DNA of 64,000 nt from Candidatus Multivorans sp. GTDB lineage: Bacteria > Acidobacteriota > Thermoanaerobaculia > Multivoradales > Multivoraceae. Below, one piece after another: positions 11,834 to 27,876 of the stretch. Position 1 is the stretch's first letter. Every line of letters begins with the position of its first letter. The notes beneath the pieces were generated by a model, which worked only from the letters and a program-made list of their open reading frames with translations, was not told where the DNA came from and did not search any database. The stretch covers positions 2,592,001 to 2,656,000 of the forward strand of contig OZ245033.1 in the NCBI GenBank assembly GCA_965224025.1. Reading direction: 5' to 3'. The position numbers were made by a program, and so were the translations under genes.

Positions 11834-13153
11834 ATGAGCCGCTCGATCGCTGCACTTCTCGTTCTTGGCGCCTTGGGCCTCGCTTCCGTGGCGGTCGCCG
11901 CCGACACGGGCGAGGAAGTCACCTTCCACGAGCATGTGCTGCCGATCTTCCAGCAAAGCTGCCAGACTTGCCATCGGCCGGGCGGCGACAACGTCGCCGG
12001 CATGGTGGCGCCGATGTCGCTGATGACGTACGAGGAATCGAGGCCCTGGGCGCGCTCGATCGCGCGTCTGGTGCAGAGCCGGGAGATGCCGCCGTGGGAC
12101 GCGACGGACCACACGGCCGGGGTCTTCGCCAACGAGCGCACGCTGACCCAGAACGAGATCGACACGGTCGTGGCCTGGGTGGGACGCGGCGCGCCGAAGG
12201 GCGATCCGGCCAAGGGGCCGGCCCCCCGTGTGTTCGAGGACACCGGCGGCTTCCTGATCGGCAAGCCGGACCTGATCGTCTACATGGAGGAGCCCTACTT
12301 CGTGGATGACGACATCGAGGACGAACAGCCCAACTTCTTCATCACGCTGACCGAGGAGATGCTCCCGGAACCGCGCTGGATTCAGGCGATCGAGTACCAG
12401 CCGGATGCCGAGTTCGTCCATCACATCACCGGCCGCGCCTTGACCCCGAACGAGGACGGCGAGGTGAACGTGCTCAGCGAGAACACGTTCTCCCTGGGTT
12501 CCATCGCAGCCGGCGAGGATCCGACGATCTATCCGCCGGGGTTCGGCAACGTGTTGCGAGCCGGCATGGTGGTCCGAATGAACGTGCATTACCACAAGGA
12601 ACCCGGCCCGGGCACCTCGGGCTACGACCGTTCAGCGGTCGCCTTCAGGTTCCATCCGGCGGGCGCCGACGTGAAGCACAAAGTGACCTGGAACACGGTC
12701 GGCGCCGGCGCCTTCGAAATTCCGCCTGGTCACGGGCGCTGGCGTGTCGGGTCGTCCAAGGTGTTCGAGAAGGACACGGTGATCCTGTCGCTGCATCCGC
12801 ACATGCACTTCCGAGGCGAGAGCATGAAGTACACGGCGTTCTACCCCGACGGCGGCGCAGAGGTACTGCTCGACGTCCCGCAGTACGACTACAGTTGGCA
12901 GACGAACTACATCTACCGTGAGCCCAAGGTGCTGCCGGCCGGAACCCGGGTGGAGATCGAAGCGATCTACGACAACTCGGAGACCAAGCTCGATGAATAC
13001 CCGTTCCTGAACATCGAGCGCGCCGTGGACTGGGGCGCGCAGAGCACGGACGAGATGATGGCCCCCTTCCTGGCCTGGACCTACGTGGAGCCGGAAGAGG
13101 CGGCGGCGATCCGAGCCGCCGGCGGGCCAAGTTCGACCGGCGGCGGCGAGTAA
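11834..13153 (+). CDS. Secreted cytochrome c / copper type II monooxygenase-like protein
   Basis: Signal peptide, CQTCH heme motif, FVHH, HPHMH and DEMM copper-ligand motifs. Confidence 0.82.
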   Translation: MSRSIAALLVLGALGLASVAVAADTGEEVTFHEHVLPIFQQSCQTCHRPGGDNVAGMVAPMSLMTYEESRPWARSIARLVQSREMPPWDATDHTAGVFANERTLTQNEIDTVVAWVGRGAPKGDPAKGPAPRVFEDTGGFLIGKPDLIVYMEEPYFVDDDIEDEQPNFFITLTEEMLPEPRWIQAIEYQPDAEFVHHITGRALTPNEDGEVNVLSENTFSLGSIAAGEDPTIYPPGFGNVLRAGMVVRMNVHYHKEPGPGTSGYDRSAVAFRFHPAGADVKHKVTWNTVGAGAFEIPPGHGRWRVGSSKVFEKDTVILSLHPHMHFRGESMKYTAFYPDGGAEVLLDVPQYDYSWQTNYIYREPKVLPAGTRVEIEAIYDNSETKLDEYPFLNIERAVDWGAQSTDEMMAPFLAWTYVEPEEAAAIRAAGGPSSTGGGE

Positions 13154-13167
13154 CGCGGGCTGCACCC

Positions 13168-13197
13168 GCCTGCCGAGGGTCCCGTGTGTGGGGTCCC
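13168..13197. repeat. Left arm of the inverted repeat bracketing the Druantia cassette
   Basis: gcctgccgagggtcccgtgtgtggggtccc; 28/30 match to the reverse complement of 24538-24567. Confidence 0.8.
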
Positions 13198-13244
13198 GCG
13201 GGACGCGCCATCCGTGCGCCCGATGACGGCCGCACGGATTGGTT

Positions 13245-13273
13245 CACGGGTGGCGCGGATCGCGCCACCCGTG
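13245..13273. terminator. Perfect 13-bp hairpin between convergent genes (possible bidirectional terminator)
   Basis: cacgggtggcgcg-gat-cgcgccacccgtg; no U-tract; a second 9-bp stem lies at 13210-13239. Confidence 0.45.
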
Positions 13274-13425
13274 TCACGGCTAGCAGTTGGCTCCCTTGGA
13301 GGGCCGCGCTTCGGTGCGCACCGCCGTGCAAGTCGACCGGTGGGCGCTACGCGTCGGCGGACTCGGGTCCGACGAAGTGTGCGCCGGGCTGCCGTGTTCT
13401 CACCGGACCTTGAACCTGTCGGCGT

Positions 13426-16400
13426 TCATCGAAGGGCAGTCATGATCCGCCGGGTAGCGGCTGGTAGGTTCCCGCGCACTACGAGTTCGTTTTCGACGAT
13501 GACCGGGAGTTCTCGGCTGGAATCAAGAGCGGCGATGGAGGCGTCGGCGGGGCGATGGGGCGTCAGAGGATCTGAGAGGGCGATGACGAACCGTCGGCCG
13601 GTCTTGGTCGTCGCCAGGATGGGTGCGGTGACGGTCGCGCCGGCCGTTTGCAGGGGGGCATCCATGTCGAATCGCGTCCCGCCCACGGATTGGCGCTGGA
13701 GATCATTGCGGAGCAGCGCTGTCGAGGAAGCCAATCGGCTTGGGCTGAACTCGGCAAGCCGTCCGTCGATGAGATAGCTGAGAAGTTGGGCGCCGATGTG
13801 GCGGTCGAGGAGACTGTGCTCGAACTTGTTCTTGAAGCTGCGTAGGCAGCGGTAGCACGACGCGTCGCAGCCTTCCTCGCAACTGATGAGAAGGCCGTGT
13901 GCTGCCTGCAACAACTCGACGGGTGATTCGGGGAGTTGCGTCGAGAATCCGGCACCACCTGGGAGTGTGTCGTACAGGAAGACCTCGGCTTCTAGGCCAG
14001 TTGTGCCGCCGGGCGTGAGTGCAGGGCGGAACTCGGCCATCATTTCTCCCGGCTCTAGTTCGAGCAATCTGCAGGCGGCAGCAGCCAGCGCTTCGCTAAC
14101 AGTCCGCAAGGCAACGACCGTTGATGTGTGGCCGGGTTTGAGGCTCATTGGCCGAGCGACCCGCAAGGAGAAGAGTGCGATGTCCGTTATGAAGTCGGTG
14201 CCCAGGACGAGGTGGCGTACGGGGTTGAGACCGTCGCAATTGCGCTTGTCGTCGTCGTACGGATAGGGCTTCAAGTGCGTGCCGTGCAGTTGGTCGGAAT
14301 GGGCCGCTGTCGCTTCTATGCGACCGCACTTCGTGCAGTACGTGTAGCCGTCCTTTCTCGGACCCGTATTGGACACGAGCAGGTGTCTTCTCGACGCAAG
14401 TACCCGGACGCGTTCGTTGACGATGGTCCAAGCCTCGGAATCGTCCGGCGTGTCCATCGTCAGCTTGGCGCGGGTCGCGTAGCTGGTTTCCGGCATGTCG
14501 TCCGGCGACGTGACCTCTTCGGTGTCGACGGGATGGGCGAACCCGGGGGGCCGCAGCCAGTAGCGCCCAGGACCGAACGTTCGGACGCCGCCACAGGCTT
14601 GGCAGTCCCGAGTTTCGCGCCGCTGGGCCTCGCCGACAGCGTAGGTCCTGGCGAAGCCGCAGATCTCGCACTCCATGTAGATGCGCTTGGACTCCCATGC
14701 GGCGAAACGGTCGTTGGGATGGGCGGAGTAAATTGCACTCGACGTGTAACACTTGCCGGAAATCCACACCTGTTTGCCTGGGGAATACTGGGACAGGGCA
14801 ACCGAAAGTCCTTGCTGGGGCGCGAAACGCATGATCGGGCGGAATCGCGTGGACCGGTCGGTGTCGAACACATGGAAGGTCGCGACGTCGGTCGGGAAGG
14901 CGTAGCGTGGGAGTTTCCCGCGGTAGAGAAGCCGGTCGAGAAGCTTTTGGGTGTTGGCTGTCTGCTTCGAGCTCTCCTCGCCGGCTTCCGGCTGGAGTTC
15001 GGCTTCGGCCGCGTCGGGGGACTCGCCGTAGTCCTCGGCTTCGTCGGGCGCGAGGCCAATAGCGTCGTCGATGGCTTCAAGGCAATCCTGAATGAGACCG
15101 CTCAGGAGCAAGTCGCGGTCCTGCGGGGTGATCTCCCGCGGAATCCAGGACGACACCCGGCACCGTAGGTTGCCTTCGTGCTCTCCGAGCCAGTGAGCGA
15201 AATCGTGGCGGTTCAGGACAGAGGCAGGATCGCGGAACTCGGCGACGGTGCCGAGCACCGAGAAGAGGTCGTGATTCTGGCCGGGATCCACGGCCGGGAT
15301 GCGATCCTGGTGGTAGCACTGCAGTAAGAACGCGCGGATGTGCCGGCGTACGATGTCCGGATTGTCGAGCGTTAGTTTCGGGTCGACGACATCGCCCCGG
15401 ATCATCCCGTCCGGCTTCGTGAAGTAGTGCTCGTCGTGGCTGTCGGCGCTGCCGAAGGCAACGACGGTGGCGACGGCGTTGCCGCGGCGTCCTGCTCGGC
15501 CCGAGCGCTGCTGATAGTTGGCGCGGCTCGGCGGCATGTTGCGCAGGGCGACGCCGGCCAGGGCGCCGATGTCGATGCCGACCTCCATGGTCGTCGTGCT
15601 CGAAAGCACATCGACGGCGGTGGACGAGTTGGCGCGTTCCCCAAGGGCGATGTCCTGAAAAAGGAGTTCGTTCTCCTCGGCCTTGGAGAACACGTCCTCG
15701 GTCTGCGGGGCGTTCAACTGCGCGGTGTGCTCGGCGGCGACGAGAGCAAGTGGTGGATTCGGAGGTTCCGAGAGCGCGTCGGTGACGGGTCTGCGGTAGA
15801 AGCCCTTTCGCGCTAGGAAGATGGGGTCGTGGTCAGGATCAAGTTCCCCGATGTTGAGGCTTCCGCAATCCAGACAGTGCGGGATGCTCGAAACGGGCCG
15901 ATGCACGGATTTGCAACTGCTACATCGGGCCCAACTGCCTTCGAAAGCGAGGGTCAAATCGCTGCCCCGCAGGCGACTGAAGCCGTTGGCGGTGGCCTCG
16001 GTGAAACGGGCCATTAGTTGGGGTGACCAATCGCCGTTGAAGATCTTGCGCGCCGCAGGGACGGCGAGGATGGTGTTCATGGCCCTGAACTTGCCTTTCC
16101 GCGAGCGGACGCTGATGCCTTGGGAACGCGGGCGCTGGCCCCAGACGGGCGGCATGGCACCGAGCCAGAAGCCGTACCCCTGCCAGCAGCGCAGCCACGC
16201 CCGCGCGAGTTCCGCCTTGGTTTCGGGCGTTTCGGCGACGCCGGGAATCGAGGGGAGTTCGTACAGCATATCCGTGAGGTCTTCGCGTTCGGCGAGGGAT
16301 GCCAGGGCCAGAGGCTCGAATCCGAGAAAGCGGTCCTGCACGGTCGTTACTATCTGCTCGAGCAACGCTTCGGGTGGACGTTCTGATCGAATCCGCATGC

Positions 16401-18966
16401 AGAGTCTGACTAGGGTGCCGTCGTTGTCGGTCTGGTTGTTGTCGACCGCGTCTCGCACGATGAGATCCGCCCCGAAGCTCTCGCCGGCCTTCTTTTCGGG
16501 GCGCAGGCGCACATGGAGCGTCCGGGCGGCAAGGAGGACAGCAAGATAGAGGTCGTTGAGGTTGAGGTCTGGCCGCAGGAAGGGGACGGCTTGGAGCCGC
16601 TGAAAGCCCCAGGCGATGAGCGGGCGAAGGGAGTCGCGGACCGAGTACATCTGCAAATTCGGGGCTAGGCGTGCCGCGACCTGTCGCGAGTCCGAGAACG
16701 TCAGTACCTTTCTGCCCCGCAAAGGCGCGAAGGGGGTCGGAGGGTCGAGGGACGGAGGTTGGATCTGCAGTTGCCGGGCCACGAGCGCTTGGAACGGTTG
16801 GTCGCCCTTGGTCTGGTGATCCCGGACGTAGGAGGTACCGAAACGGGCCCACTTGCCGCAGACGGCGCACGGAGCGAACTGGCCTGGTGACATGAGTGAC
16901 GGGTCGCCGCCGCCGTTTGCTTCGTCCAACGCCCCGGACAGGCGATCGTTGCATAGATAGACGCGGCGCATGCGCGGGCCTAGGGATGGCGGGTTGAGGC
17001 GGCCCGTCTCAAGATCGTAGTCCGCGGGCTCGGCGGCTTCGTCGGTGGCGGGAGCTTCAAGCAGAAGATCTAGGGGACCAAGCGGACCCGTTTCGCCCTC
17101 CGCCATGCGTAGGCGCTGTCCGGGTTCAGACCATAAGGACGACGGGCAATCGACATCGTGGGTGTAGGCCCTTGCGTACGCTGTACCGCAGTTGCGGCAC
17201 GTGTACAGTTCGAGCACGCGGGCGCCGCAGTGGCAGGATTCGCGCGGCTGGCTGTACATGGTTCCGCAGATTCCGTCCCTCTCGGATTCGTCGAGGTTGC
17301 TGCATGCCGGGTCCATGCAGACCCAAAGCCCGGGGAGACCGCGGAAGAAGTTGTGGATGCGGCAGGGCAAGAGCCCGGGGGTCTTGGGGTCGAGGCGCGC
17401 GGCACTGCCGAGTGCCATTAGCGCGTTGACCGCGCTGTCGGCGGTCTGCGAATTGGCGCTGGGGAACAGCTGTTGGCCGAGTTCGGTAAGAGGGAGCGCC
17501 CGCTCCATTGTCATGTTAATAAGACGGCCCATTGGTGGGTAGTCGGCGAGCGAGTTGTGGAGGGCTCGCTCGGGATTGGTGTCGTCCTTCGCATGTAGAT
17601 GGTCGACGATCGGCTTGATGATCGCGTGACGTTCCGAATCGGTTTGCGCGTCGTAGTAGCGCTTGAGGTCGATGCCCGCGAGGACCCCGGCGTCCCGGGG
17701 TGCACCTGGGCCGTCGTGCGGTCGGAGATCGAGTGCTCCCGAGATCGGGAGGAACGTGTCTGGCGAAAGGCCCGATAGCTGTGCGCCGAACTGCGGAGCG
17801 TACGGGCGGCAGCTGAAGCTAGCGGTTGAGCAGATGACGCGGAACCGGTCTGCTGGAACACCGAGGCGATCGCGCAATCGGCGCAGCAGAAGGCTCACCT
17901 CCGCTCCGGCGGTCCCCCTGTAGAGATGCGCCTCGTCGAGAACAACCAAAAAGTCCTCGTCCGTATTGAGTTCGAGGAACGCGCGTGTCCTATCGAATAC
18001 GGCGCGCTCGATCGGACGCATCATCATGTACTCAAGCATCGAGTAGTTGGTGACGAGGAGATCAGGGGGGGTGCACTGCACTTCGTGTCGCGTGAGTAGT
18101 TCGCTGTCGTCCGGCAGCGTCACGGCCCTGACGAATGCACCTGTCTTCGGATCCTGCCAGCGGCTCCTCTTCGCGCCGAGCCAGGCACTCAGGTCTGGCT
18201 TGGCCGGCCACTTTCCGCGCTCCTTGAGTGCATGCCGCAGGCGACGCGCCTCGGCATGGCCTTCGGCGTTCGTATCGCGCGCGGCACGCTCGATGTCGAC
18301 GAAGAAGTCATCGAATGCCCTGAACTTGGCGGAGTCCTTCTCGCGCGTCCGAACGCCCGCGTAGGGCGTGCGGCTCGTGTAGCGGGCGAACCGTGGAGGC
18401 CGCCCGGCCCAGGTGTTGAAGAGTGAAACCAAGCGGGGGTCGCCGAAGAGCCCGCGCAGGCGCCCCAATTGGTCGTTGACTAGGGCGTTCATGGGATACA
18501 GGACGAGAGCGCGCATCCCAGGTTGGTTTGCAAAGGAGTCGCTCCCCGAACTGGCTTCCCGTGCCAGCTTTCCGAGGATGGGAAGGAGGAAGGCCTCGGT
18601 CTTTCCCGACCCGGTGCCTGTCATCACGACGAGATTGCGTCTGTCGATCAGGCTACCCCGGACCGCTTCCGACTGGTGTTTGTAGGGAGGATCGTAGATC
18701 AGCTTTGGCAGACCGCCTTGCGCGTGTGATACGGCGCTGAAGGCTTCGAGTGCTGCGGCAGGGAGTCCCGCCATTTCGGAGAAGCGCATACCGGTTTCGT
18801 AACGCGGCGTGGACTCCAGGTAGGGGACCTGGTGGATGACACCGGGAGTGTTCAGCAGTGCTTTACGCCGATTTATGAGCGACTTGGCGCTGATGTGGTA
18901 AGTGGCTTCAATGTAGTCGCGCAGTGCTCCGTGGAGTTGCTCTATCGACTGTTGGATGGTCTGCAT
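13426..18966 (-). CDS. druE: Druantia DruE-type large DEAH-box helicase with DUF1998
   Basis: 1846 aa; PYKHQ, TGTGSGKT, LYPMNALVNDQ, DEAH, TTTMEVGIDIG, QRSGRAGR, YDTLPGGAG and CxxxCxxxCxxC zinc motif; in operon with a DUF4338 gene. Confidence 0.9.
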   Translation of the reverse strand: MQTIQQSIEQLHGALRDYIEATYHISAKSLINRRKALLNTPGVIHQVPYLESTPRYETGMRFSEMAGLPAAALEAFSAVSHAQGGLPKLIYDPPYKHQSEAVRGSLIDRRNLVVMTGTGSGKTEAFLLPILGKLAREASSGSDSFANQPGMRALVLYPMNALVNDQLGRLRGLFGDPRLVSLFNTWAGRPPRFARYTSRTPYAGVRTREKDSAKFRAFDDFFVDIERAARDTNAEGHAEARRLRHALKERGKWPAKPDLSAWLGAKRSRWQDPKTGAFVRAVTLPDDSELLTRHEVQCTPPDLLVTNYSMLEYMMMRPIERAVFDRTRAFLELNTDEDFLVVLDEAHLYRGTAGAEVSLLLRRLRDRLGVPADRFRVICSTASFSCRPYAPQFGAQLSGLSPDTFLPISGALDLRPHDGPGAPRDAGVLAGIDLKRYYDAQTDSERHAIIKPIVDHLHAKDDTNPERALHNSLADYPPMGRLINMTMERALPLTELGQQLFPSANSQTADSAVNALMALGSAARLDPKTPGLLPCRIHNFFRGLPGLWVCMDPACSNLDESERDGICGTMYSQPRESCHCGARVLELYTCRNCGTAYARAYTHDVDCPSSLWSEPGQRLRMAEGETGPLGPLDLLLEAPATDEAAEPADYDLETGRLNPPSLGPRMRRVYLCNDRLSGALDEANGGGDPSLMSPGQFAPCAVCGKWARFGTSYVRDHQTKGDQPFQALVARQLQIQPPSLDPPTPFAPLRGRKVLTFSDSRQVAARLAPNLQMYSVRDSLRPLIAWGFQRLQAVPFLRPDLNLNDLYLAVLLAARTLHVRLRPEKKAGESFGADLIVRDAVDNNQTDNDGTLVRLCMRIRSERPPEALLEQIVTTVQDRFLGFEPLALASLAEREDLTDMLYELPSIPGVAETPETKAELARAWLRCWQGYGFWLGAMPPVWGQRPRSQGISVRSRKGKFRAMNTILAVPAARKIFNGDWSPQLMARFTEATANGFSRLRGSDLTLAFEGSWARCSSCKSVHRPVSSIPHCLDCGSLNIGELDPDHDPIFLARKGFYRRPVTDALSEPPNPPLALVAAEHTAQLNAPQTEDVFSKAEENELLFQDIALGERANSSTAVDVLSSTTTMEVGIDIGALAGVALRNMPPSRANYQQRSGRAGRRGNAVATVVAFGSADSHDEHYFTKPDGMIRGDVVDPKLTLDNPDIVRRHIRAFLLQCYHQDRIPAVDPGQNHDLFSVLGTVAEFRDPASVLNRHDFAHWLGEHEGNLRCRVSSWIPREITPQDRDLLLSGLIQDCLEAIDDAIGLAPDEAEDYGESPDAAEAELQPEAGEESSKQTANTQKLLDRLLYRGKLPRYAFPTDVATFHVFDTDRSTRFRPIMRFAPQQGLSVALSQYSPGKQVWISGKCYTSSAIYSAHPNDRFAAWESKRIYMECEICGFARTYAVGEAQRRETRDCQACGGVRTFGPGRYWLRPPGFAHPVDTEEVTSPDDMPETSYATRAKLTMDTPDDSEAWTIVNERVRVLASRRHLLVSNTGPRKDGYTYCTKCGRIEATAAHSDQLHGTHLKPYPYDDDKRNCDGLNPVRHLVLGTDFITDIALFSLRVARPMSLKPGHTSTVVALRTVSEALAAAACRLLELEPGEMMAEFRPALTPGGTTGLEAEVFLYDTLPGGAGFSTQLPESPVELLQAAHGLLISCEEGCDASCYRCLRSFKNKFEHSLLDRHIGAQLLSYLIDGRLAEFSPSRLASSTALLRNDLQRQSVGGTRFDMDAPLQTAGATVTAPILATTKTGRRFVIALSDPLTPHRPADASIAALDSSRELPVIVENELVVRGNLPAATRRIMTALR

Positions 18967-18979
18967 GGGGCTGCTTTTT

Positions 18980-20062
18980 CTAGTGATGGTTGTTCACGCG
19001 CGACAACCACAGATTCTGTTGCAGAAACGTCTCCTCTGTATCGGCTTCATTCGCCGGAAGCACGTATGAGAGGAGGGACCTGTCGCGGGGTACGGGCCTA
19101 CCGAGGATCATAAGGCGGCGCTGCGACCATTGCGGCAGAGGGGAAAAGAAGTCGAAGCGAACACCGCCGTTGTCCGCCCGACGCCGGTAGCACTGTGGCC
19201 TGTCATTGCAGTGATCGATGGCCATTTGAAGGTGCCACGCGGCGTCGCAGGCGCGCCAGCGCGTCTGCTTGAGTGGTAGGTCGAGCAGCCGGACCGGAGC
19301 GCCGCTGCGCAAGTCAACCAGACACCAGGCCGGAGCACCGAACTCCTGAGGCCGCCGAGCGACGAACATGCCGTCCTGGTTCGTGGGTTTGCCCCATCGG
19401 CCGCGGTAGTAGGCGACCGGTCGCGCGGAGTCGAGGATCTGAAGGTCGGGGACCTCGGTGACGGGGTTTTCGCGGGCCAGAAGCTGCTGATGGCGAGCGA
19501 CCAAGCTTGCTGGATCTTCGGGCCGCGGACTCTTGAGCCAAGCGCCGTCGGATAGTTGCTGCAGCCCCAGTTCGCTCAGTTCATGCGGGAGATCTTCACC
19601 GGGTCGCGGTTCAAGGAGGCGTGTCGCGCCACGGTAGATAACGCGGCCGGAAAGCGTAGACGGGAGGAACGAGTCCTGATCCGGCACGACGCCGAAGAGA
19701 AACACGGAGCCACTTGGCCGTACGACGAAGCCGGGGGGCGCCGCGAAAACCCAAGTCTGTCTAACGTTCGAATCTTCGGTGACGACATCGTTGAGTTCGA
19801 GGAGGTCGCCGCCGACGATCAGAGCTTCGATGGCTTCGTCGGCGGCTTCGGGAGGGGAATCGTAGGCGGCCGGTAGGCCGCGCGTGCATTCGAGCAGCGA
19901 GGCCCGTAGGGTGGCTCGGGAGCACGGGCAGTGGACGCCGGCACTGCGCCTGCCGAGGGCTGCCAGCGTGGCGTCGTCCAGTGCGACCTTTTCGCCAACG
20001 GGCATGCCGAGCTTTCGACGGCAGTCGGCGAGAACCTTAGTCGCGGAGACGCGCTCAATCAT
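18980..20062 (-). CDS. druD: Druantia accessory protein (DruD-like), ~360 aa
   Basis: ATG at 20062 (MIERVSATK); directly upstream of druE; assigned from position and size. Confidence 0.65.
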   Translation of the reverse strand: MIERVSATKVLADCRRKLGMPVGEKVALDDATLAALGRRSAGVHCPCSRATLRASLLECTRGLPAAYDSPPEAADEAIEALIVGGDLLELNDVVTEDSNVRQTWVFAAPPGFVVRPSGSVFLFGVVPDQDSFLPSTLSGRVIYRGATRLLEPRPGEDLPHELSELGLQQLSDGAWLKSPRPEDPASLVARHQQLLARENPVTEVPDLQILDSARPVAYYRGRWGKPTNQDGMFVARRPQEFGAPAWCLVDLRSGAPVRLLDLPLKQTRWRACDAAWHLQMAIDHCNDRPQCYRRRADNGGVRFDFFSPLPQWSQRRLMILGRPVPRDRSLLSYVLPANEADTEETFLQQNLWLSRVNNHH

Positions 20063-20094
20063 GTCCGTACCCACGTCCGCTGGCGGTTGGTAGG

Positions 20095-22920
20095 TTAGCC
20101 ACGATGGTGCTCCCGGAGAAGTGCTACGAGACGGGCACCTCGGACCAAAGCCGGACTGTTGACGAGCTTTTGGACTCGGTCGTCCAGGAGCGGGTCGGCG
20201 AGGACATCGGTTGGCCGGATGGCTAGACGCAGCGCGAACCGGCATAGGTCGCGGTCGAACGACACGCGATGGAGTTCGACCACGTCGGCGAAACGGTTGG
20301 CTGCGGCGTCTTCGCTTTCGCCAGGGTCCGAGTGTCGAGCCAGGGGCCGGCCGAACTGTGTGGATTTGTCCACGAGCTTCTTGAGAACCGAGAGAGCATG
20401 TCGAGACATCGGTCGTTCGACGAAGGATCGCTCCGCTCTTGCCCAGTTCTCGCCGCACATGGTCCCGAAGATCGCGCTGATGATGCTGCGGATGACTTGG
20501 CGCTGCCTTGTGCTAGCAAGGAAGCCCGCTTGTCTCGCGCCGTGCCAGTAACGGAGCATGCGGAACGCTTCCCGGAGCGGTGGACCCGCGGGAACGTCAA
20601 CCTCCGGCTTCACGCCGAGATCCTGCAGGCCCGCGCTTGGCGGCGACGAACTCACCACAGCCGCGTCGAAGAACCGCGTATGGCGCGCGAGAAAGAGTCC
20701 ACCCGGCGGCGGGACGGGTCGCCCCGCTCTGGCGCTCTGGGCTTGCAGAGGGATGCGTTTGAGCGGTCGCTCCATACTGTAGAACCAGATGTCCGAGGCG
20801 GTGTCGTGATGGCCGCTGTCGTCGACGAGGCGGACCAAGGTCTTGTGCTTCCGGGAGCTCAAGACCCAGCGCAGGGGTGAGGGATCGTGCTCGAACCTGA
20901 GGGTGCAGGTGCCTAGGGATTCGCCTTTGACTTCGAGCGTGCAACACGCGGCCTCCAGGTACTTCCAGGCGCGGGATCTATCGCCGACAAATCGAGCGAA
21001 CGTGTTACGCCAGGCTTCCGGCGTGATGGGGAGGTTCATTGGAGGTTCCAAGGGACCGGAGAGGATTTCCCGGCCGTCCGCGGTGTGCAGGCGCACATCG
21101 AGGCGGACGGCGAAGCCCTCGGGACCATTGACGGAGAGGTTCAGTTCGTTGCGCCAGAAGAGGTCGAGGCTGGCGTCGTAGGGATCTGTGGTGACGAATA
21201 GACCTGGGTGCGAGGCGATGCCTGGGGTCCAGGGCTCCGGTTCGCGGACCGCGAGTCGTACGAACCCCTTTGCCGCGGGCGTGGACACAGTGCGGTCCAG
21301 TTCCGGAGTGCGGTGTGCTTCGACGGTCAGCATGTGGATACCGGCTCGTAGGGGCGGCAGTCGCACGAACGTGTGGCCGCCTTGAGGGTCGGTCGCGAGA
21401 ACCTGCGGGGCATCCTCGTTCAGGCGGAAGGAAAGCGCATCGAGCGGATGGTCCGGGGCGATTCCGAAGCAAGGGGACTCAGTGGTCAGCCACTCCGTGC
21501 TGCCTTCGCCGTCCCACCCGCGTCCGGGCAAACCGGCTGGCCAGACGCGGATGGTGCGCGCTACATCGAATCCCAACTCGCTAAGGCGGGCGACCTCGTC
21601 CGACGAAACGTGATCCGGCACGGCGAGGCGGAAAGCCTGGACGTCTTCGCACTCTAGGATGCACGAAGAGGCTTTCGGTAGTTCGCGAGGCACGCTCCCG
21701 GCAGTCACGACGATGTAGTTGTGGTCTGGTCTGACGGTTCGCGAGGCGAGGTGGCGGGCGATGCCGTCGGTGCCGATGCGAAAGAGCCAGAGCGGCCCGG
21801 GCGGGAGTCGGCACTCGGACTCAAGAAGATGATCCATAAGGGGGTTTGGCCGTTCAAAGTGGATGAGCGGCACCCCGGCGTCCGGCCAGCGTCGAAGGGC
21901 ACCCTTTCGATCGCCGGACAATAGCCATCCTGTCGGCTTCCAGTCGTCGGCGCCGTTCAGGCGGCATCGGGTGCCGTCGAGGAAGGCGCGCAGGTCGGCG
22001 CTTTCGGCAGCCACGGGACGAAAAGACCTTAGCTGCAGGACGGGGGACCAGCGATCGGCGCCGACATGGCGGAGGAAGAGCGCTGGGCGGATGATGAACC
22101 GCGACGTGTCGGGTGGAACGGGCTCGTCGGGGCCGGTGGGGCTGGGCGAGACACGATACGTGCCGCTGCCGATGCCCTTGAAACGATCCGAGACGACGCG
22201 CCTTGTCTCCTTGAGCCACTCGCGAGAACTGCGCACGTGGTCCAGATCCGCGACGATTCGTTGGAGGGTCGGTGGGTGGATCAAGTCCTCGGTGTTGACG
22301 GACTCGCCGCGAAGGAGCGCGGCGACGATCTGTCCGCTCAGGTCTTCTTGTTGGAGGAACGCCTGAAAGCGCGTCGAGGAATGGGACGCATGGGCGGCGA
22401 GGAGCCTGCCGATCGAACGTGTGTCGAGCGAAGAGGTAGCGGCCAAACGGAACCGTAGGTCGTAAAGGAGCCTGGCGAACTGGTATTGGAGATACCGTGG
22501 AAGAAGCGCATGGGTGATCGGCCAAGCGATGATGCTGAACTGCTCGGCCCATGGGCCGGATGGCACCACGCCGTTGAAGGACCTTTGGAATCTCTGGAAC
22601 CAGGACTTCACCTTGGTTCGGTCGTGAAACTGCCAGTTGGGCGTTCGCTCTTCAAACGAAGGCCAGTACTCGTCGCCTTTGTACTTGTAGCCGGCCTCGC
22701 TCGCGTAGACGACCCATGGCAGCCAATGGGGCGCTAAGCGCCGCCGAGTTCGAACCCGGTCGCGAAGCAAGGCACTGGCGCGCTTGAGTTCGTAAGGGCT
22801 GACGCCGTGTTCCAGGGCAAAGATCGGGAAGCCGGATCGTTCGCGGGCGCTCGCGAGCGAACTGAAGTGTGCGAGAAGGCGCTCCTGTAGAGCGTTCAGT
22901 GCGGCGGCGTCACGGTCCAT
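20095..22920 (-). CDS. Druantia accessory protein, 941 aa (DruC-like or DruB/C fusion)
   Basis: Between druA and druD in a tight operon; no recognisable catalytic motif. Confidence 0.65.
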   Translation of the reverse strand: MDRDAAALNALQERLLAHFSSLASARERSGFPIFALEHGVSPYELKRASALLRDRVRTRRRLAPHWLPWVVYASEAGYKYKGDEYWPSFEERTPNWQFHDRTKVKSWFQRFQRSFNGVVPSGPWAEQFSIIAWPITHALLPRYLQYQFARLLYDLRFRLAATSSLDTRSIGRLLAAHASHSSTRFQAFLQQEDLSGQIVAALLRGESVNTEDLIHPPTLQRIVADLDHVRSSREWLKETRRVVSDRFKGIGSGTYRVSPSPTGPDEPVPPDTSRFIIRPALFLRHVGADRWSPVLQLRSFRPVAAESADLRAFLDGTRCRLNGADDWKPTGWLLSGDRKGALRRWPDAGVPLIHFERPNPLMDHLLESECRLPPGPLWLFRIGTDGIARHLASRTVRPDHNYIVVTAGSVPRELPKASSCILECEDVQAFRLAVPDHVSSDEVARLSELGFDVARTIRVWPAGLPGRGWDGEGSTEWLTTESPCFGIAPDHPLDALSFRLNEDAPQVLATDPQGGHTFVRLPPLRAGIHMLTVEAHRTPELDRTVSTPAAKGFVRLAVREPEPWTPGIASHPGLFVTTDPYDASLDLFWRNELNLSVNGPEGFAVRLDVRLHTADGREILSGPLEPPMNLPITPEAWRNTFARFVGDRSRAWKYLEAACCTLEVKGESLGTCTLRFEHDPSPLRWVLSSRKHKTLVRLVDDSGHHDTASDIWFYSMERPLKRIPLQAQSARAGRPVPPPGGLFLARHTRFFDAAVVSSSPPSAGLQDLGVKPEVDVPAGPPLREAFRMLRYWHGARQAGFLASTRQRQVIRSIISAIFGTMCGENWARAERSFVERPMSRHALSVLKKLVDKSTQFGRPLARHSDPGESEDAAANRFADVVELHRVSFDRDLCRFALRLAIRPTDVLADPLLDDRVQKLVNSPALVRGARLVALLREHHRG

Positions 22921-22948
22921 CGTTTAGGTCGCTGACGAGCGACTGGTT

Positions 22949-24169
22949 TCAGTTGGACGCCGCCTGGTGCGGCTGGGTACCGACGTGGCTGTCGAGCAGG
23001 TGGAGGACGTCAGACCTGTCCCAGACGCGGTAGTCGGGGCGTCGCCGAGCACGCGGAAGAATCCACCGTTCTAGAGCGAGGTCGGCGACTTGCTCGGCTG
23101 AGAGAAGCGTAGAAATGTCTGGTGGTCCCTTGCCGGTGCACAGGATCGTAGCGGCATTGGATGCGAGCTTGCAAACGAAGACTTCGCGCTGGATACCGTG
23201 GCGCAGCAGGTCCTCTCTGAACCCAAGAGCCTTGAGGGCGGCGCGTGTGGTGCGAAGACGCCAGTTCGGGCCTTGTCCGAACCGATGCTGATCCGCATAC
23301 CCGTGGCCAGTGCTTCGCAGGTAGTCGCGCAACTCGAGAAACAGGTTGTCCGAGATGTGGAAGTGACCCCAGCCGCGCGTGTACCCGATGGGCTCAAAGT
23401 ACCGTACACCGCCCAGCTTCAAGCGGTTGTACACCGAGGACCGCCCCATCGACGACGAGGTGGTGACGGCCAGCAAGCGCGGCTTCTTCGCCTTGCCGGA
23501 GATGATGCCTGTGCTGTTGCCGTAGGTGCGCGTGAACTCGTTGTAGACCTGTCGTGAGCGGAGGAGACAGGCGACCATCTTCCCGGCCAATAGCGAGTTG
23601 TACGGGGGCAGTGCGCCCAGCACGTACGCGTCCATGACATTGACCAAGCGCTCACGGCGGTCGTTGGCATCCCATCCGATAAAGGCGTCGCGAACCGAGA
23701 GATTGAAGACCGGATCGCCAATTGCGAGCACGCCCAGCAGCTTGTCGTTGTGGGTATCCCAGATGACATAGCGGAGACGCCGCCCGAATCCGTTGGAGAC
23801 CGGTACGGACCATGTGAGCGTGGCTAGGCGAAACAAGTCCGCCTGCCAGGTTCCCGCGTACACCCGCTCAAGTTTGGGTCTGATTTCAGCGGGTTCCAGA
23901 TCCCGACCGGAGGCGAAGTAGGGAAGGAGCTTCGGGGCACGGCGCGAAACGAAGTCCGAGTTGACCGAGAGACGGTCGGTTCGCTGGGGCCCGTGCAATC
24001 TCCGAACGAGGTCTTTGTCGTGGCCGCCGATGTTGAGGGTGCCGTCCGCTGACTTGTGGAAGCCAAGGGAACGCAGCTGGCGTCTGACCTTGCGTCGGAG
24101 CGAGGCCTCCCGTGTCGAGATGGGGATTACCGGGCTGCTCTTCTTGTTCGAGTTCCCCACGACTGACAT
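22949..24169 (-). CDS. druA: Druantia DruA (DUF4338 family)
   Basis: 406 aa; WSVPVSNGFGRRLRY, GALPPYNSLLAGK, TTSSSMGRSSVYNRL, GYTRGWGHFH. Confidence 0.85.
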   Translation of the reverse strand: MSVVGNSNKKSSPVIPISTREASLRRKVRRQLRSLGFHKSADGTLNIGGHDKDLVRRLHGPQRTDRLSVNSDFVSRRAPKLLPYFASGRDLEPAEIRPKLERVYAGTWQADLFRLATLTWSVPVSNGFGRRLRYVIWDTHNDKLLGVLAIGDPVFNLSVRDAFIGWDANDRRERLVNVMDAYVLGALPPYNSLLAGKMVACLLRSRQVYNEFTRTYGNSTGIISGKAKKPRLLAVTTSSSMGRSSVYNRLKLGGVRYFEPIGYTRGWGHFHISDNLFLELRDYLRSTGHGYADQHRFGQGPNWRLRTTRAALKALGFREDLLRHGIQREVFVCKLASNAATILCTGKGPPDISTLLSAEQVADLALERWILPRARRRPDYRVWDRSDVLHLLDSHVGTQPHQAASN

Positions 24170-24537
24170 TTCCGCTTTCTGGCCGGGTTGGTCTTCCCTC
24201 GGTGGCGGGCCAACTGGAAGGTGCTCGCCGCGTCACTCGCAGGATGACGACTCCGGATTCGAGTGGGATTCTCGCCTACATCGACCCAGGGGACAAGCCG
24301 GACGCCCACTGGGAGGAACTCGGCGACGATCTTCCGACTGGTGGTCGTGAAGGACGGCTGCGGGCGGCACGGGCCAGGATCTGTCGCGAGAGGCACATCG
24401 CTGGCAGACAGCCGGTCGGACGAGTACACGTGCACCGGTCGCAGGAATCCCTTCGTAGGTTCCTCAACCCGGATGCTCGCTCCGGTCGGTCGTTGCCTGA
24501 CTTTGGGTCGGTGGGCGTCGCTCGCTCCGAGCCCCTT

Positions 24538-24567
24538 GGGATCCCACCCACGGGACCCTCGGCAGGC
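24538..24567. repeat. Right arm of the inverted repeat bracketing the Druantia cassette
   Basis: gggatcccacccacgggaccctcggcaggc; 28/30 complementary to 13168-13197. Confidence 0.8.
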
Positions 24568-24635
24568 TGGCGGAGGTCGGGCTGAGTGATGCCGGTCCGT
24601 TGCGATCCCTGGGTGGGTCGAAACGGCTGGCGTGC

Positions 24636-25172
24636 TTACGCGGGCGGTCGGGGGCCGTAACGATGTCCGTCGACCTCGAGTTCCCAGTCCAGCATGCGGT
24701 CGCCATCGAAGATGTAGCGGCCTTGGGGCGTCAGGCCGTTTAGCGAGTGGGGAAGCCAGAGCCGGTCGTCCTCCCACATCTCGTCGTAGGGGATGGCGTC
24801 GACTTCGGTCCAGAGGGGGGCCGCCTCGTCGGTTTCACGGATGTCGCCCTGGTAGCCCGAGGCGACGAAAGCGTAGACGTGGATGGAGTAGCCGTCGACG
24901 AACTGAAACAGGTTCTCTCCCCGATACTCGAGTCCCTGGGGCGTGACGCCGAGTTCCTCCTCGACTTCGCGGGTGGCGCAGTCGATCGGCTCCTCGCCGG
25001 GCTCGAGCCGGCCACCGGGGCCGTTGACCTTGCCGGCGCCCAGGCCGCGTTTCTTGCGGATCAGGAGCACCCGGCGGTCTTCGAGGACGAAGGTCAGGGT
25101 GGCCCGATCGACGGCGCGCCAGGAGGCCCAGTCGATGTCGCCGAGCTTCGTCTTGCCTGCGGCAGCCTGCAC
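24636..25172 (-). CDS. NUDIX hydrolase, 8-oxo-dGTP diphosphatase (MTH1-like)
   Basis: KKRGLGAGKVNGPGGRLEPGE...REVEEELG Nudix box; MWEDDRLWL. Confidence 0.9.
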   Translation of the reverse strand: MQAAAGKTKLGDIDWASWRAVDRATLTFVLEDRRVLLIRKKRGLGAGKVNGPGGRLEPGEEPIDCATREVEEELGVTPQGLEYRGENLFQFVDGYSIHVYAFVASGYQGDIRETDEAAPLWTEVDAIPYDEMWEDDRLWLPHSLNGLTPQGRYIFDGDRMLDWELEVDGHRYGPRPPA

Positions 25173-25321
25173 GGCGGCATCGTAGCGAAGGAAAGGCCGG
25201 TCCGCGCCTACCGAGGTACCGGTACCGCCCCAAGACTCCTCGCCTGCGGCTCGGTGTCTTGGCCCATCCCCCCGTGTCTAGCGGTCCGGCCTTCGGCGCG
25301 TACCGGTACACTGCGCGGCCT

Positions 25322-26194
25322 ATGAGATTCGGACTTCGGTACTGCAACACGGGCCGCTACGTCGATCCGGGCCTGGCGGTGGAACTGGCCCAGGCCGCCG
25401 ACGAGGCGGGCTTCGAGTCGATCTGGACCGTCGAGCACGCGGTCGTTCCGGGCGGCTATGAGTCGGCGTATCCCTATTCGCCGGACGGCAAGATGGCCGG
25501 CGGCCGAGACGACTTTCCGTTGCCCGACCCGTTGATCTGGATGGCGTTCGTCGCGTCGCAGACCCGGCGGATCCGGTTCGCGACCGGGATCCTGATCGTG
25601 CCACAGCACAACCCGGTGGTCGCCGCCAAGCAGATCGCCACCCTGGACCACATGACGGGCGGGCGTCTCCTTCTGGGCATCGGCGTCGGCTGGTTGAAGG
25701 AGGAGTTCGACGCGATCGGCGCTTCCTTTGCCGACCGGGGACGACGCACGGACGAGTACATCGAAGCGATGCGGGAGCTCTGGGGCGCCGAGAGGCCGAC
25801 CTACCAGGGCGAGTTCGTCCGGTTCGAGGCCGCCTACTGCCGCCCGCAACCGGTCACCGGCAGCGTCCCGATCATCGTTGGCGGCCATTCCAAGGTCGCA
25901 GCCCGGCGCGCCGGCCGCCTGGGTGACGGTTTCTTCCCGGCCCGCGGCGCCTCGGCCGAGCTGATCGCGCTGGCGCGTGACGTGGCCGTGGAGCACGGCC
26001 GCGACCCGGGTGCAGTCGAGATCACGACCGGCATCGGTGAGGATCTGTCGAGCCTGCGCTCGCTGGCGGACCTGGGGGTTGAACGCGTGCTGGTTCCGGT
26101 GGCGCCGATGCCGGGGATGGGGCTGCACCTCGGTCGGCCGGAGAACGCACAGGCGCTGATGGACCAGATCCTCGAGGCGGCGCCGCCGGAGTAG
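25322..26194 (+). CDS. LLM-class (probably F420-dependent) oxidoreductase
   Basis: GFESIWTVEH, ATLDHMTGGR, GIGVGWLKEEF. Confidence 0.9.
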   Translation: MRFGLRYCNTGRYVDPGLAVELAQAADEAGFESIWTVEHAVVPGGYESAYPYSPDGKMAGGRDDFPLPDPLIWMAFVASQTRRIRFATGILIVPQHNPVVAAKQIATLDHMTGGRLLLGIGVGWLKEEFDAIGASFADRGRRTDEYIEAMRELWGAERPTYQGEFVRFEAAYCRPQPVTGSVPIIVGGHSKVAARRAGRLGDGFFPARGASAELIALARDVAVEHGRDPGAVEITTGIGEDLSSLRSLADLGVERVLVPVAPMPGMGLHLGRPENAQALMDQILEAAPPE

Positions 26195-26204
26195 TCAACA
26201 GAGC

Positions 26205-27527: not shown

Positions 27528-27598
27528 GCGGTCGAGGTCGAGCCCACTTTCGCCTCGAAGTCGGCTCGGTTGGGGCACACCCGCCTGCGGGCACACCC

Positions 27599-27778
27599 GT
27601 CAGCGCCGCGATCCGGAGGGGAGGGTCCCAGCGGATGCTCGCGCTTGTCGGATGAATGGAAGGTCGGCGCTCGCTGCGGTCGGCTGCGCTCCGGTTGGTT
27701 GTCGGTTTCTGGAGGGATATGGGCAGTCGCTTGCCGACAGCCTCGCTGGGCCCCTCCCCTCCGGCTCGCGGCGCTGAC
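27599..27778. mobile_element. MITE/REP-like ~180-bp element with 35-bp inverted arms
   Basis: 27599-27633 and 27744-27778 are complementary at 33/35; non-coding interior; mobility is not demonstrated. Confidence 0.6.
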
Positions 27779-27876
27779 TGGAGGTCGTCGGCGAGGCGTC
27801 GGATGTCTCGATGCCGGGCTGTCGAAGTTGGAGGGGCTGCTGTTATCGTCCGAGTTCGCCCATGGAGAGAGTCAGG

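What the first reader, a model, noticed from the sequence alone, without database searches (positions are those of the whole stretch)
13164..24579. Anti-phage cassette nested inside a small inverted-repeat element, with an empty relative 3 kb away
Seen: the Druantia operon is bracketed by one left arm (13168-13197) and one right arm (24538-24567) that are 28/30 complementary. The ~180-bp element at 27599-27778 has arms 33/35 complementary, and by eye it is homologous to both flanks. Left-side shared words are cacccg..gcc..gggtccc..ggaYgc; right-side shared words are cgctccggtYggtYgt, tgggc(a)gtcgctYgc and ggaggtcg. Each pair of arms matches its own partner better than the other element's arms, which suggests the two Druantia arms belong to one element now separated by ~11.3 kb of cargo. 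No transposase, integrase or clear target-site duplication is present. Inference: a MITE/REP-like family that either mobilises defence cargo in trans or serves as a landing pad for defence cassettes. I do not recognise this as a described carrier.
Basis: partly seen in the sequence, partly recalled or inferred. Interest (0 to 1): 0.75.

Follow-up and report, generated by a model that had tools for sequence, protein, structure and literature searches.

The report
Druantia inside an IS110-targeted genomic repeat
The anti-phage Druantia operon splits one copy of a roughly 205-base structured repeat found throughout this bacterial genus, and the break lies at the core site that an RNA-guided IS110 insertion sequence is programmed to hit, which would make the repeat a docking site for foreign genes.

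Summary
The two arms (13168-13197 and 24538-24567) are 28/30 complementary, and they are the only two matches to that sequence in the 5.14-Mb genome. They are the halves of one copy of a ~205-nt structured repeat. This genome has 57 hits in three subfamilies, and the repeat occurs in 40 of 42 genomes of the genus. The copy at 27586-27793 is an intact member of another subfamily.

The repeat is not shown to carry the cargo. The same left arm stands at this locus in 8 of 17 relatives read, 7 of them without Druantia. Druantia also sits at a second locus without arms.

The repeat does act as a landing pad, and the mechanism is a known kind. In two relatives a 1.36-kb IS110-family element sits in the same core site, and its non-coding end carries guide-like words that match that core. 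The right Druantia junction (24474|24475) keeps the IS110 right-end motif. The 19-nt junction pattern occurs four times in 42 genomes: two IS110 junctions and two Druantia junctions.

No IS110 gene or left end survives beside Druantia, so how the operon entered is inferred. Cargo elsewhere is mostly insertion sequences, so defence enrichment is not supported. I rate it a new variant of a known kind.

The parts
11834..13153 (+). Left flanking gene, a 439-aa cytochrome c-domain protein. Its stop codon lies about 10 nt before the element's left end.
   Evidence: PF00034, 3.1e-6. Orthologues at 84-93% identity in same-genus genomes.
13160..13206 (+). Left end and left stem of the split subfamily-B element: conserved CACCCGCC end, lineage-specific stem and GGGTCCC box.
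   Evidence: The same stem lineage stands at the same site in 8 of 17 relatives read.
13207..13273 (+). Nested copy of a separate, very abundant ~65-nt double-hairpin repeat.
   Evidence: More than 100 blastn hits of 60 nt or longer at 84-97% identity in the genome. The same nesting occurs in other family copies, such as C1:134829-135124 and C1:1824 kb.
13274..13322 (+). Degenerate remainder of the left half, the first internal hairpin up to the core. The boundary is approximate.
   Evidence: By-eye alignment only in this genome. In G016 the orthologous stretch matches HMM 66-115 at E=4.9e-8.
13426..18966 (-). druE, 1846 aa.
   Evidence: PADLOC DruE1 E=0; DEAD, Helicase_C and MZB domains.
18980..20062 (-). 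druD. The ORF extends to 20458, but the match starts at residue 133.
   Evidence: PADLOC DruD1, 1.5e-124, residues 133-490.
20095..22920 (-). 941-aa ORF in the position of druB/druC, with no family match.
   Evidence: No Pfam or PADLOC hit, even at E up to 10. Conserved at 91% in G016 and 85% in G012.
22949..24169 (-). druA, 406 aa.
   Evidence: PF14236, 4.6e-81; PADLOC DruA1, 1.9e-197.
24460..24474 (+). Last 15 nt of the cargo, an IS110 right-end (left-donor) motif ending in CGGAT. It stands directly before the element's core.
   Evidence: 10/12 anchored identity to the right ends of the IS110 copies in G055 and G015. Only 8.9e-5 of sampled genome 12-mers score as well. The junction pattern is found only at 2 IS110 and 2 Druantia junctions in 42 genomes.
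24475..24582 (+). Right half of the split element. It starts with GCTCGCTCCGG (core plus right target) and includes the right stem at 24528-24575.
   Evidence: nhmmer HMM 105-210, E=6e-7; HMM 111-225, E=2.9e-16.
24636..25172 (-). Right flanking gene, NUDIX hydrolase.
   Evidence: PF00293, 9.7e-17. It lies 15-290 nt from the cytochrome c gene in G018, G005, G003 and G024.
27586..27793 (+).
   Evidence: nhmmer 3.9e-51; CM R1 173.6 bits. It lacks the IS110 target word.

Best explanation
The arms are the two halves of one copy of a genus-specific, ~205-nt, highly structured intergenic repeat. Copies usually sit in sense orientation just after a gene's stop codon. The central core of subfamily B (…CACTCCG-CT-CGCTCC…) is the programmed target of an IS110-family, bridge-RNA-type insertion sequence.

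I infer that such an IS inserted into the intact core of the copy between the cytochrome c gene and the NUDIX gene, in an ancestor of G000 and G016. The Druantia operon then either entered with it, as an expanded IS110 locus, or entered into it. The recombinase gene, the guide-RNA region and the left end were later lost. What remains is the right-end/target hybrid junction at 24474|24475.

Shown: the family, the split, the intact and empty orthologous states, the IS110 copies in the same site with matching guide-like words, and the shared junction sequence. Inferred: the order of events and the way Druantia entered.
For: (1) Family. 57 nhmmer hits in G000, 32 of them full length, in three subfamilies. 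18 of 36 consensus pairs show compensatory changes. The CM matches 40 of 42 genus genomes but only 2 of 36 genomes outside the genus in the order, both weakly.

(2) Same break elsewhere. Copies at C1:3062/3056 kb (5.95 kb cargo) and C1:1315/1304 kb (10.9 kb cargo) are subfamily B, and their left halves end at HMM 114 and 102.

(3) At the orthologous site of the 3062 copy, 30 loci were examined. 25 have no element. G016 has an intact copy. G000, G055, G056 and G049 have split copies whose left halves end at HMM 113-116, with cargos of 5.95, 1.36, 8.0 and 14.9 kb.

(4) The G055 cargo is one IS110-family element, a 322-aa protein with PF01548 and PF02371.

(5) Its non-coding left end holds a 9-nt word identical to the left target, a 9-nt word that is the reverse complement of the right target, and an 8-nt word equal to its own right end plus core. 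This is the LTG/RTG/LDG layout defined in PMC11208160 (passages read). These words change with the target across 4 IS copies: G055 and G015 target the element core, while G045 and G024 target another site.

(6) The exact target word occurs in 5 of 32 intact copies, all subfamily B.

(7) The Druantia right junction reads …AAC(C/T)CGGAT|GCTCGCTCCG in G000 and G016. This is 10/12 identical to the IS right ends, against a background of 8.9e-5. The 19-nt junction pattern with up to 1 mismatch occurs 4 times in 42 genomes, at the G055 and G015 IS junctions and the G000 and G016 Druantia junctions. The reversed control gives 0.

(8) A preprint (10.64898/2026.08.14.744561, passages read) reports IS110 loci that expand with cargo and keep only one recognisable donor boundary.
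Against: The 11.3-kb cargo holds no IS110 gene.

Unanchored local alignments were not significant. The cargo's left 96-166 nt against IS left ends, and its right 305 nt against the last 350 nt of the IS, gave p = 0.17-0.96. The terminal 70 nt gave p = 0.04-0.39. The IS110 link for Druantia therefore rests on about 12-15 anchored bases plus the junction position.

The left junction shows no IS110 left-end match.

G000 has no intact IS110 of this guide type. It has only a fossil copy, aimed at the other target. G016 has none at E<=1e-60.

The right junctions of the other two split copies in G000 lack the motif, and they carry 7- and 16-nt duplications of the core. Not every split is explained by this IS.

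The intact orthologue in G016 has a subfamily-C-like core without the target word, so it is not a clean picture of the site before insertion.
Confidence: 0.55

Rival explanations
1. Fragile palindrome. The long hairpin or cruciform is cut near its centre, and unrelated DNA, Druantia included, is captured by end-joining. IS110 plays no part at this locus.
For: The breaks lie near the centre of a long, about 35-bp, stem structure. The cargos are unrelated and share no significant termini. The split copies at 3056/3062 and 1304/1315 lack the IS110 end motif.
Against: This does not explain why the last 12-15 nt of the Druantia cargo equal an IS110 right end at exactly the site programmed by that IS. 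It also does not explain why only subfamily B is split, since subfamilies A and C fold the same way. Of the 32 intact copies, the 5 carrying the target word are all B.
Confidence: 0.15
2. Cassette exchange by homologous recombination. The conserved left and right halves serve as portable homology arms, so cargo sitting in one copy, in another genome, can replace the interior of another copy.
For: In G010 the copy at this locus carries the stem lineage of a different G000 copy (C1:2077 kb), and a relic of the older right end lies 70 nt downstream. This suggests copy-to-copy replacement. The window copy at 27.6 kb has a duplicated left end.
Against: Druantia was found in only one element copy, at one locus shared by G000 and G016. 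The stems flanking it are the resident lineage, which leaves under about 50 nt of homology per side. The IS110 end motif is left unexplained.
Confidence: 0.1
3. Cargo-carrying MITE, like a mobile insertion cassette. The element's ends are recognised by a transposase in trans, and the whole unit of left half, Druantia and right half transposed into this site.
For: Inverted ends bracket the cargo. The family shows presence/absence polymorphism between species.
Against: The same left arm is already at this locus in 7 relatives without Druantia. Druantia at the second locus has no arms. No transposase with matching ends was found, and the genome has no Y1/RAYT gene. Cargos in other split copies differ at one and the same locus.
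Confidence: 0.04

Closest known systems
IS110-family elements that insert into repeated extragenic palindromes or structured intergenic repeats: IS621 in REP (PMC11208160), ISPpu9 in REP (PMC12288879, abstract read) and ISPpu10 in a conserved intergenic stem-loop sequence (10.64898/2026.03.19.712850, abstract read).
   Same: A DEDD recombinase with a long non-coding left end. The guide-like words match the left target in sense and the right target in antisense. The target is a multi-copy structured intergenic repeat. The core is duplicated at both junctions.
   Different: The target here is the central core of a ~205-nt three-subfamily repeat in an acidobacterial genus. At the Druantia locus only the right-end junction survives and no recombinase is present.
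Expanded, cargo-bearing IS110 loci (preprint 10.64898/2026.08.14.744561, passages read).
   Same: Cargo of several kb lies inside an IS110-made insertion. Only one donor boundary is recognisable. Defence genes are reported there among the cargo, at about 2-fold enrichment.
   Different: Those loci are defined by containing an IS110 recombinase gene, and this one has none. It would be a decayed or non-autonomous form. A complete Druantia operon as the sole cargo does not appear in the passages I read.
Mobile insertion cassettes and cargo-bearing MITEs such as MIC231 of Bacillus cereus
   Same: Short inverted ends bracket passenger genes, with no transposase inside.
   Different: Here the ends predate the cargo at the locus. 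Nothing shows that the composite moved as a unit.
Co-transcribed structured intergenic repeats: REP/BIME, ERIC, and the Correia elements of Neisseria (recalled).
   Same: Small, multi-copy and strongly folded, and placed just downstream of genes.
   Different: No RAYT gene in the genome. There is a strong sense-orientation bias (25 of 32). The family is confined to one genus among the genomes searched.

Membership tests
MITE-like repeat | Short, non-coding and multi-copy | tested here: met
   57 hits in G000, 32 full length at about 205 nt. 40 of 42 genus genomes have matches.
MITE-like repeat | Terminal inverted repeats | tested here: met
   A long closing stem. 18 of 36 consensus pairs show compensatory change.
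MITE-like repeat | Presence/absence at orthologous sites | tested here: met
   At the cytochrome c-NUDIX locus there is no element in 7 of 17 relatives read. At the 569-aa gene locus there is no element in 25 of 30.
MITE-like repeat | Target-site duplication | tested here: inconclusive
   CGTCGG-like words stand on both sides of many copies. They cannot be told apart from conserved element ends. Filled sites also carry extra flanking DNA.
MITE-like repeat | A parent IS with the same ends | tested here: not met
   No copy encloses a transposase bounded by intact arms other than nested unrelated ISs. This was not an exhaustive search.
REP/BIME with RAYT | A Y1 (RAYT) transposase in the genome | tested here: not met
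   PF01797 has 0 matches in G000. The control search rang in 6 of 14 reference genomes.
IS110-family insertion (G055 and G015 copies) | DEDD recombinase (PF01548 plus PF02371) | tested here: met
   322-aa ORF, 3.5e-20 and 1.1e-16. G015 orthologue at 84% identity.
IS110-family insertion (G055 and G015 copies) | Guide words in the non-coding end that match the target and donor and covary with them | tested here: met
   9-nt, 9-nt and 8-nt words in G055. The words change with the target in G045 and G024. The fold is compatible with a stem, internal loop and hairpin, but the MFE structure partly pairs the guides with each other.
IS110-made insertion (Druantia locus) | Right-end (left-donor) sequence abutting the right target at the programmed site | tested here: met
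   10/12 anchored identity. The junction pattern is unique to 2 IS and 2 Druantia junctions in 42 genomes.
IS110-made insertion (Druantia locus) | Left-end (right-donor) sequence at the left junction | tested here: not met
   No significant similarity of the cargo's left 96-166 nt to IS left ends (p = 0.17-0.96).
IS110-made insertion (Druantia locus) | Recombinase gene inside | tested here: not met
   The four cargo ORFs are DruA, a 941-aa unknown, DruD and DruE.
Druantia type I | DruA, DruD and DruE | tested here: met
   PADLOC 1.9e-197, 1.5e-124 and 0.
Druantia type I | DruB and DruC | tested here: not met
   A single 941-aa ORF stands in their place, with no PADLOC or Pfam hit at E up to 10.
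Mobile insertion cassette | The composite of ends plus cargo moves as a unit | tested here: not met
   The left arm is at the locus without Druantia in 7 relatives. Druantia at a second locus has no arms.

The most novel reading that the evidence does not exclude
The Druantia operon is a recombinase-less passenger cassette of a bridge-RNA system. It keeps a functional left-donor half-site, so an IS110 recombinase supplied in trans could still excise it or move it. The dispersed subfamily-B repeats, sitting in the 3' untranslated regions of many genes across the genus, would then be a set of addressable docking sites for exchanging adaptive genes, defence systems included.
Probability: 0.15. 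Interest if true: 0.75.

Novelty: new variant of a known kind. Interest (0 to 1): 0.55.

Why it matters
This links three things usually studied apart: a structured intergenic repeat family, RNA-guided IS110 recombination, and the placement of a defence system. If the reading holds, a host repeat can become a genus-wide address for gene insertion simply because an IS guide RNA is programmed to it. It would also mean that a defence operon can remain at such an address after the recombinase has decayed. That offers a concrete, testable route for how some defence loci arise without an integrase, and it supplies a natural target/guide pair for bridge-recombinase work. The closest prior report I found is a 2026 preprint on cargo-bearing IS110 loci, so the principle is not new.

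Tried and rejected
Rfam. No family matched the element or its flanks at E<=1 over 12000-29000; the only hit was a chance snoRNA match. The IS110 left end gave only a sub-threshold sX15 hit.

Shared cargo termini. All-against-all blastn-short of junction-proximal cargo found only the orthologous G000/G016 Druantia pairs and one weak 26-nt match between the cargo starts at 1052 and 1966 (88%, E=0.004). A local-alignment test found a real ~23-nt shared start between the cargos at 3062 and 1052 (p=0 of 300 shuffles). Druantia showed only weak similarity (p=0.007 and 0.03 among 45 pairs), which I do not rely on.

The idea that the short elements are deletion derivatives of one long parent was dropped. 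There are no shared cargo ends, an intact orthologue exists, and cargos differ at one locus.

Target specificity of the rve-type 1.6-kb IS. It abuts a right half at C1:884755 and a fragment lies near C1:4226 kb, but none of its other roughly 10 copies lies near a family hit.

The two large IS110 groups of G000, 13 and 15 copies examined, target other small repeats and not this element.

Defence enrichment of cargo is not supported.

Sequencing runs. No RNA holder was listed, so expression could not be examined. The two DNA holders come from one sample and are contigs, which cannot show rare excision products. The one joined contig (13152 to 24667, with 39 other letters between) differs at 4 of 136 and 16 of 123 positions. 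It is a co-occurring relative without the element or Druantia, not an excision junction.

Literature. Searches for the genus name and for Druantia with MITE or inverted repeat returned nothing on this repeat family. bioRxiv supplements are closed, so the locus lists of the 2026 IS110 preprints could not be checked for this genus.


Full report
**1. The observation**

The repeat finder reports arms 13160-13207 and 24528-24575 (48 nt, 81% complementary, 11,320 nt apart). It also reports 27596-27633 and 27744-27781 (38 nt, 92%). The 30-nt core of the left arm has exactly two matches with up to 3 mismatches, itself and its partner with 2 mismatches. This holds in the window, where none of 100 shuffles gave a match. 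It also holds in the whole 5.14-Mb genome, where the reversed control gave none.

Between the arms lie four ORFs on the minus strand. They are DruE (PADLOC E=0), DruD (1.5e-124), a 941-aa ORF without any family match, and DruA (PF14236, 4.6e-81). The flanking genes are a cytochrome c-domain protein on the left and a NUDIX hydrolase on the right.

**2. What the arms belong to**

A profile built from 11 copies finds 57 stretches in the genome at E<=0.01, and 32 are full length. They fall into three subfamilies, distinguished by their central core and a right-hand motif.
- Subfamily A has 11 copies, among them the window's copy at 27586-27793.
- Subfamily B has 7 intact copies.
- Subfamily C has about 14 copies with almost identical stems.

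The element has a conserved left end (CACCCGCC) and a stem of about 35 bp whose sequence differs between lineages while pairing is kept. It also has internal hairpins and a conserved right end (GGCTGGA…CGTCGG).

RNAalifold on 20 copies finds compensatory changes in 18 of 36 pairs. In my own count over 32 copies, G:T/T:G cells outnumber A:C/C:A cells 125 to 42 on the forward strand. A few columns carry much of that excess.

In 25 of 32 full copies a same-strand ORF ends within 100 nt upstream of the left end. A convergent ORF ends within 100 nt of the right end in only 4 of 32 (a crude GC3-filtered ORF test applied equally to both sides). So the repeat sits mostly in sense orientation in the 3' region of genes. 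This is also the arrangement at both window copies.

A covariance model matches 40 of 42 genomes of the genus, with 0 to 57 matches each; at most 57 candidates per genome were scored. In the order, only 2 of 36 genomes outside the genus match, both weakly. Titles of public records that hold a 19-nt core word name MAGs of Candidatus Multivorans, Thermoanaerobaculia and Acidobacteriota, along with scattered single chance hits in other phyla. Rfam has no matching family, and the genome has no Y1/RAYT gene.

**3. The Druantia copy is a split subfamily-B member that predates the cargo**

The right flank 24475-24582 matches the right half of the family (E=6e-7; 2.9e-16) and carries the B motif.

The left flank holds the left end and stem, then a nested copy of a different, very abundant ~65-nt double-hairpin repeat (13207-13273), and then a degenerate stretch. 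In the closest relative, G016, the same structure is better preserved, with HMM 12-65, the nested repeat, then HMM 66-115. G016 encloses the same operon, with DruE at 93% and DruA at 97% identity.

I fetched 19 relatives' loci downstream of the cytochrome c gene and read 17 of them.
- 8 carry the same lineage of left arm at the same place: G016, G007, G004, G009, G017, G014, G019 and G008.
- G024 keeps a footprint in which the outer ends of both arms are joined.
- G010 has an intact element of a different stem lineage, plus a relic of the older right end.
- 7 have no element.

Where examined (G009 and G014), the genes between the left arm and the NUDIX gene are metal-uptake genes, and no right half was detected there.

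DruA occurs in 5 of 42 genus genomes. In G012 and G045 the operon, or a DruA-DruE fusion remnant, lies at another locus without element halves. Its similarity to this window stops at the DruA start and the DruE stop. The element therefore did not bring Druantia with it.

**4. The same break recurs**

Two more subfamily-B copies in this genome are split.
- C1:3062690-3062780 and 3056604-3056709 are split by 5.95 kb. The cargo holds a TonB_C protein, a 1145-bp IS and unknown ORFs.
- C1:1315647-1315742 and 1304585-1304693 are split by 10.9 kb. The cargo holds nested ISs, a methyltransferase-Mrr fusion, and a paralogue of a gene at 2.76 Mb.

Left halves end at HMM position 114-115 in three independent copies: Druantia in G016, the 3062 copy and the 1052 copy.

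I then examined 30 loci at the orthologous site of the 3062 copy. 25 have no element. G016 has an intact copy with a C-like core. G000, G055, G056 and G049 have split copies with both halves present and cargos of 5.95, 1.36, 8.0 and 14.9 kb, which share almost nothing beyond the first ~65 nt. This is a true insertion hotspot inside the element.

**5. The agent**

The 1.36-kb cargo of G055 is a single IS110-family element, a 322-aa protein with PF01548 and PF02371. Its junctions read …CACTCCGCT|TGTATTT… on the left and …AACACGGAT|GCTCGCTCCG… on the right, with GCT present on both sides.

Its non-coding left end contains three guide-like words.
- TTCACTCCG is identical to the left target.
- GGAGCGAGC is the reverse complement of the right target including the core.
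- ACGGATGC equals its own right end plus the first two bases (GC) of the duplicated GCT.

The first two flank a small hairpin. This is the left-target-guide, right-target-guide and left-donor-guide arrangement described for bridge RNAs (PMC11208160, passages read). The fold of this stretch is compatible with that architecture but does not prove it.

Related IS copies in G045 and G024, and a fossil in G000, sit in a different target. Their two target words differ accordingly, while the donor word stays the same. A second copy in G015 also sits in front of an element right half. The exact target word occurs in 5 of 32 intact copies, all subfamily B. This explains why only B copies are split.

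**6. The link to Druantia**

The cargo's last bases are …CTCAACCCGGAT in G000 and …CTCAACTCGGAT in G016. They are followed directly by GCTCGCTCCGG. That is 10 of 12 identical to the IS right ends, anchored at the identical junction, and only 8.9e-5 of sampled genome 12-mers score as well.

The 19-nt pattern spanning the junction occurs four times in the 42 genomes with up to one mismatch. Two are IS110 right junctions and two are Druantia right junctions. The reversed control gives none.

A canonical IS110 insertion needs the left and right target to be contiguous. The simplest order of events is therefore that the IS inserted into the intact core first, and Druantia came with it or into it afterwards.

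**7. What is not shown**

There is no recombinase gene and no recognisable left end or guide region beside Druantia. Unanchored alignments of the cargo's ends to the IS were not significant.

G000 and G016 have no intact IS of this guide type. The other two split copies in G000 lack the end motif and carry 7- and 16-nt duplications of the core. Other agents, or later rearrangements, must therefore be involved there.

Defence enrichment is not seen. In the cargos of c3056, G055, G056 and G049, 0 of 21 ORFs hit PADLOC. In c1304, 1 of 3 hit, a methyltransferase. 7 of the 17 ORFs in the three relatives' cargos are transposases (1 of 2 in G055, 4 of 6 in G056, 2 of 9 in G049).

Reads gave no excision evidence. 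The only joined contig is a diverged co-occurring relative that lacks both the element and the cassette.

**8. Comparison with what is known**

IS110-family elements that target REP or structured intergenic repeats are established: IS621 (PMC11208160), ISPpu9 (PMC12288879, abstract) and ISPpu10 (10.64898/2026.03.19.712850, abstract). A 2026 preprint reports IS110 loci that grow by adding cargo, keep only one recognisable donor boundary, and are about two-fold enriched in defence genes (10.64898/2026.08.14.744561, passages read).

The present locus works like such an expanded locus but fails one defining feature, because it holds no recombinase. The repeat family itself, its three subfamilies, its 3'-of-gene orientation and its role as the IS target did not turn up in my searches.

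**9. Verdict**

The landing-pad reading is supported, with a mechanism of a known kind. The carrier reading and the defence-enrichment reading are not supported. My confidence that the arms are one split element is about 0.95. My confidence that an IS110 event made the split and underlies the Druantia insertion is about 0.55.

Noticed in passing
window 13207-13273, and more than 100 other places in the genome: A ~65-nt repeat made of two hairpins is very abundant, with more than 100 blastn hits of 60 nt or longer at 84-97% identity. It is nested inside several copies of the 205-nt element at the same position. One copy of a different IS110 group abuts it at C1:2680751.
   Followed up: partly
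window 27811-29164: A PD-(D/E)XK gene related to PADLOC candidate PDC-S26 is split into two overlapping ORFs (207 and 251 aa). It lies directly beside the intact subfamily-A element. G016 lacks the whole 26258-29164 segment, and G014, G007, G004 and G015 have no room for it between the p418 homologue and the S9 peptidase gene.
   Followed up: partly
window 20095-22920 (minus strand): A 941-aa ORF stands where DruB and DruC would be in a type I Druantia operon. It matches nothing in Pfam or PADLOC but is conserved in G016, G012 and, at 37% identity, G009. It may be a divergent or fused DruB/C.
   Followed up: partly
L012 (G024), downstream of the cytochrome c gene: A footprint in which the element's left end (CACCC) is joined directly to the outer part of the right arm of the Druantia-lineage copy. 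It looks as if the whole interior was deleted between short ACCC repeats.
   Followed up: no
L026 (G010) 2817-3100; window 27570-27600: Signs of copy-to-copy replacement. G010 has an element with the stems of another G000 copy, plus a relic right end 70 nt further on. The window's subfamily-A copy is preceded by a second, orphan left end.
   Followed up: no
L043 (G045:C1:2268370-2271981): A Druantia remnant at a second locus, in which DruA residues 9-215 run into DruE residues 1707-1846. The rest of the operon is deleted.
   Followed up: no
G000 whole genome: 32 matches to the IS110 recombinase domain. Two near-identical groups (13 and 15 copies examined) each stand in their own short repeated target, so RNA-guided ISs are very active in this genome.
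   Followed up: partly
window 24636-25172: The NUDIX gene beside the element matches PADLOC candidate PDC-S07 (1.6e-11), although it is conserved at this position across the genus.
   Followed up: no
window 13152/24667 in runs X1 and X2: The sample holding this genome also holds a related strain, at equal or higher contig depth, in which the cytochrome c gene and the NUDIX gene are 39 nt apart, with neither the element nor Druantia.
   Followed up: partly
C1:3062 kb and C1:1052 kb in G000; G049 and G056 orthologues: The cargos in two different split copies begin with the same ~23-nt word (TTMCCGCTC…GTCTGGCGAAG). This may be the end of a second, unidentified mobile element aimed at the same core.
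   Followed up: partly
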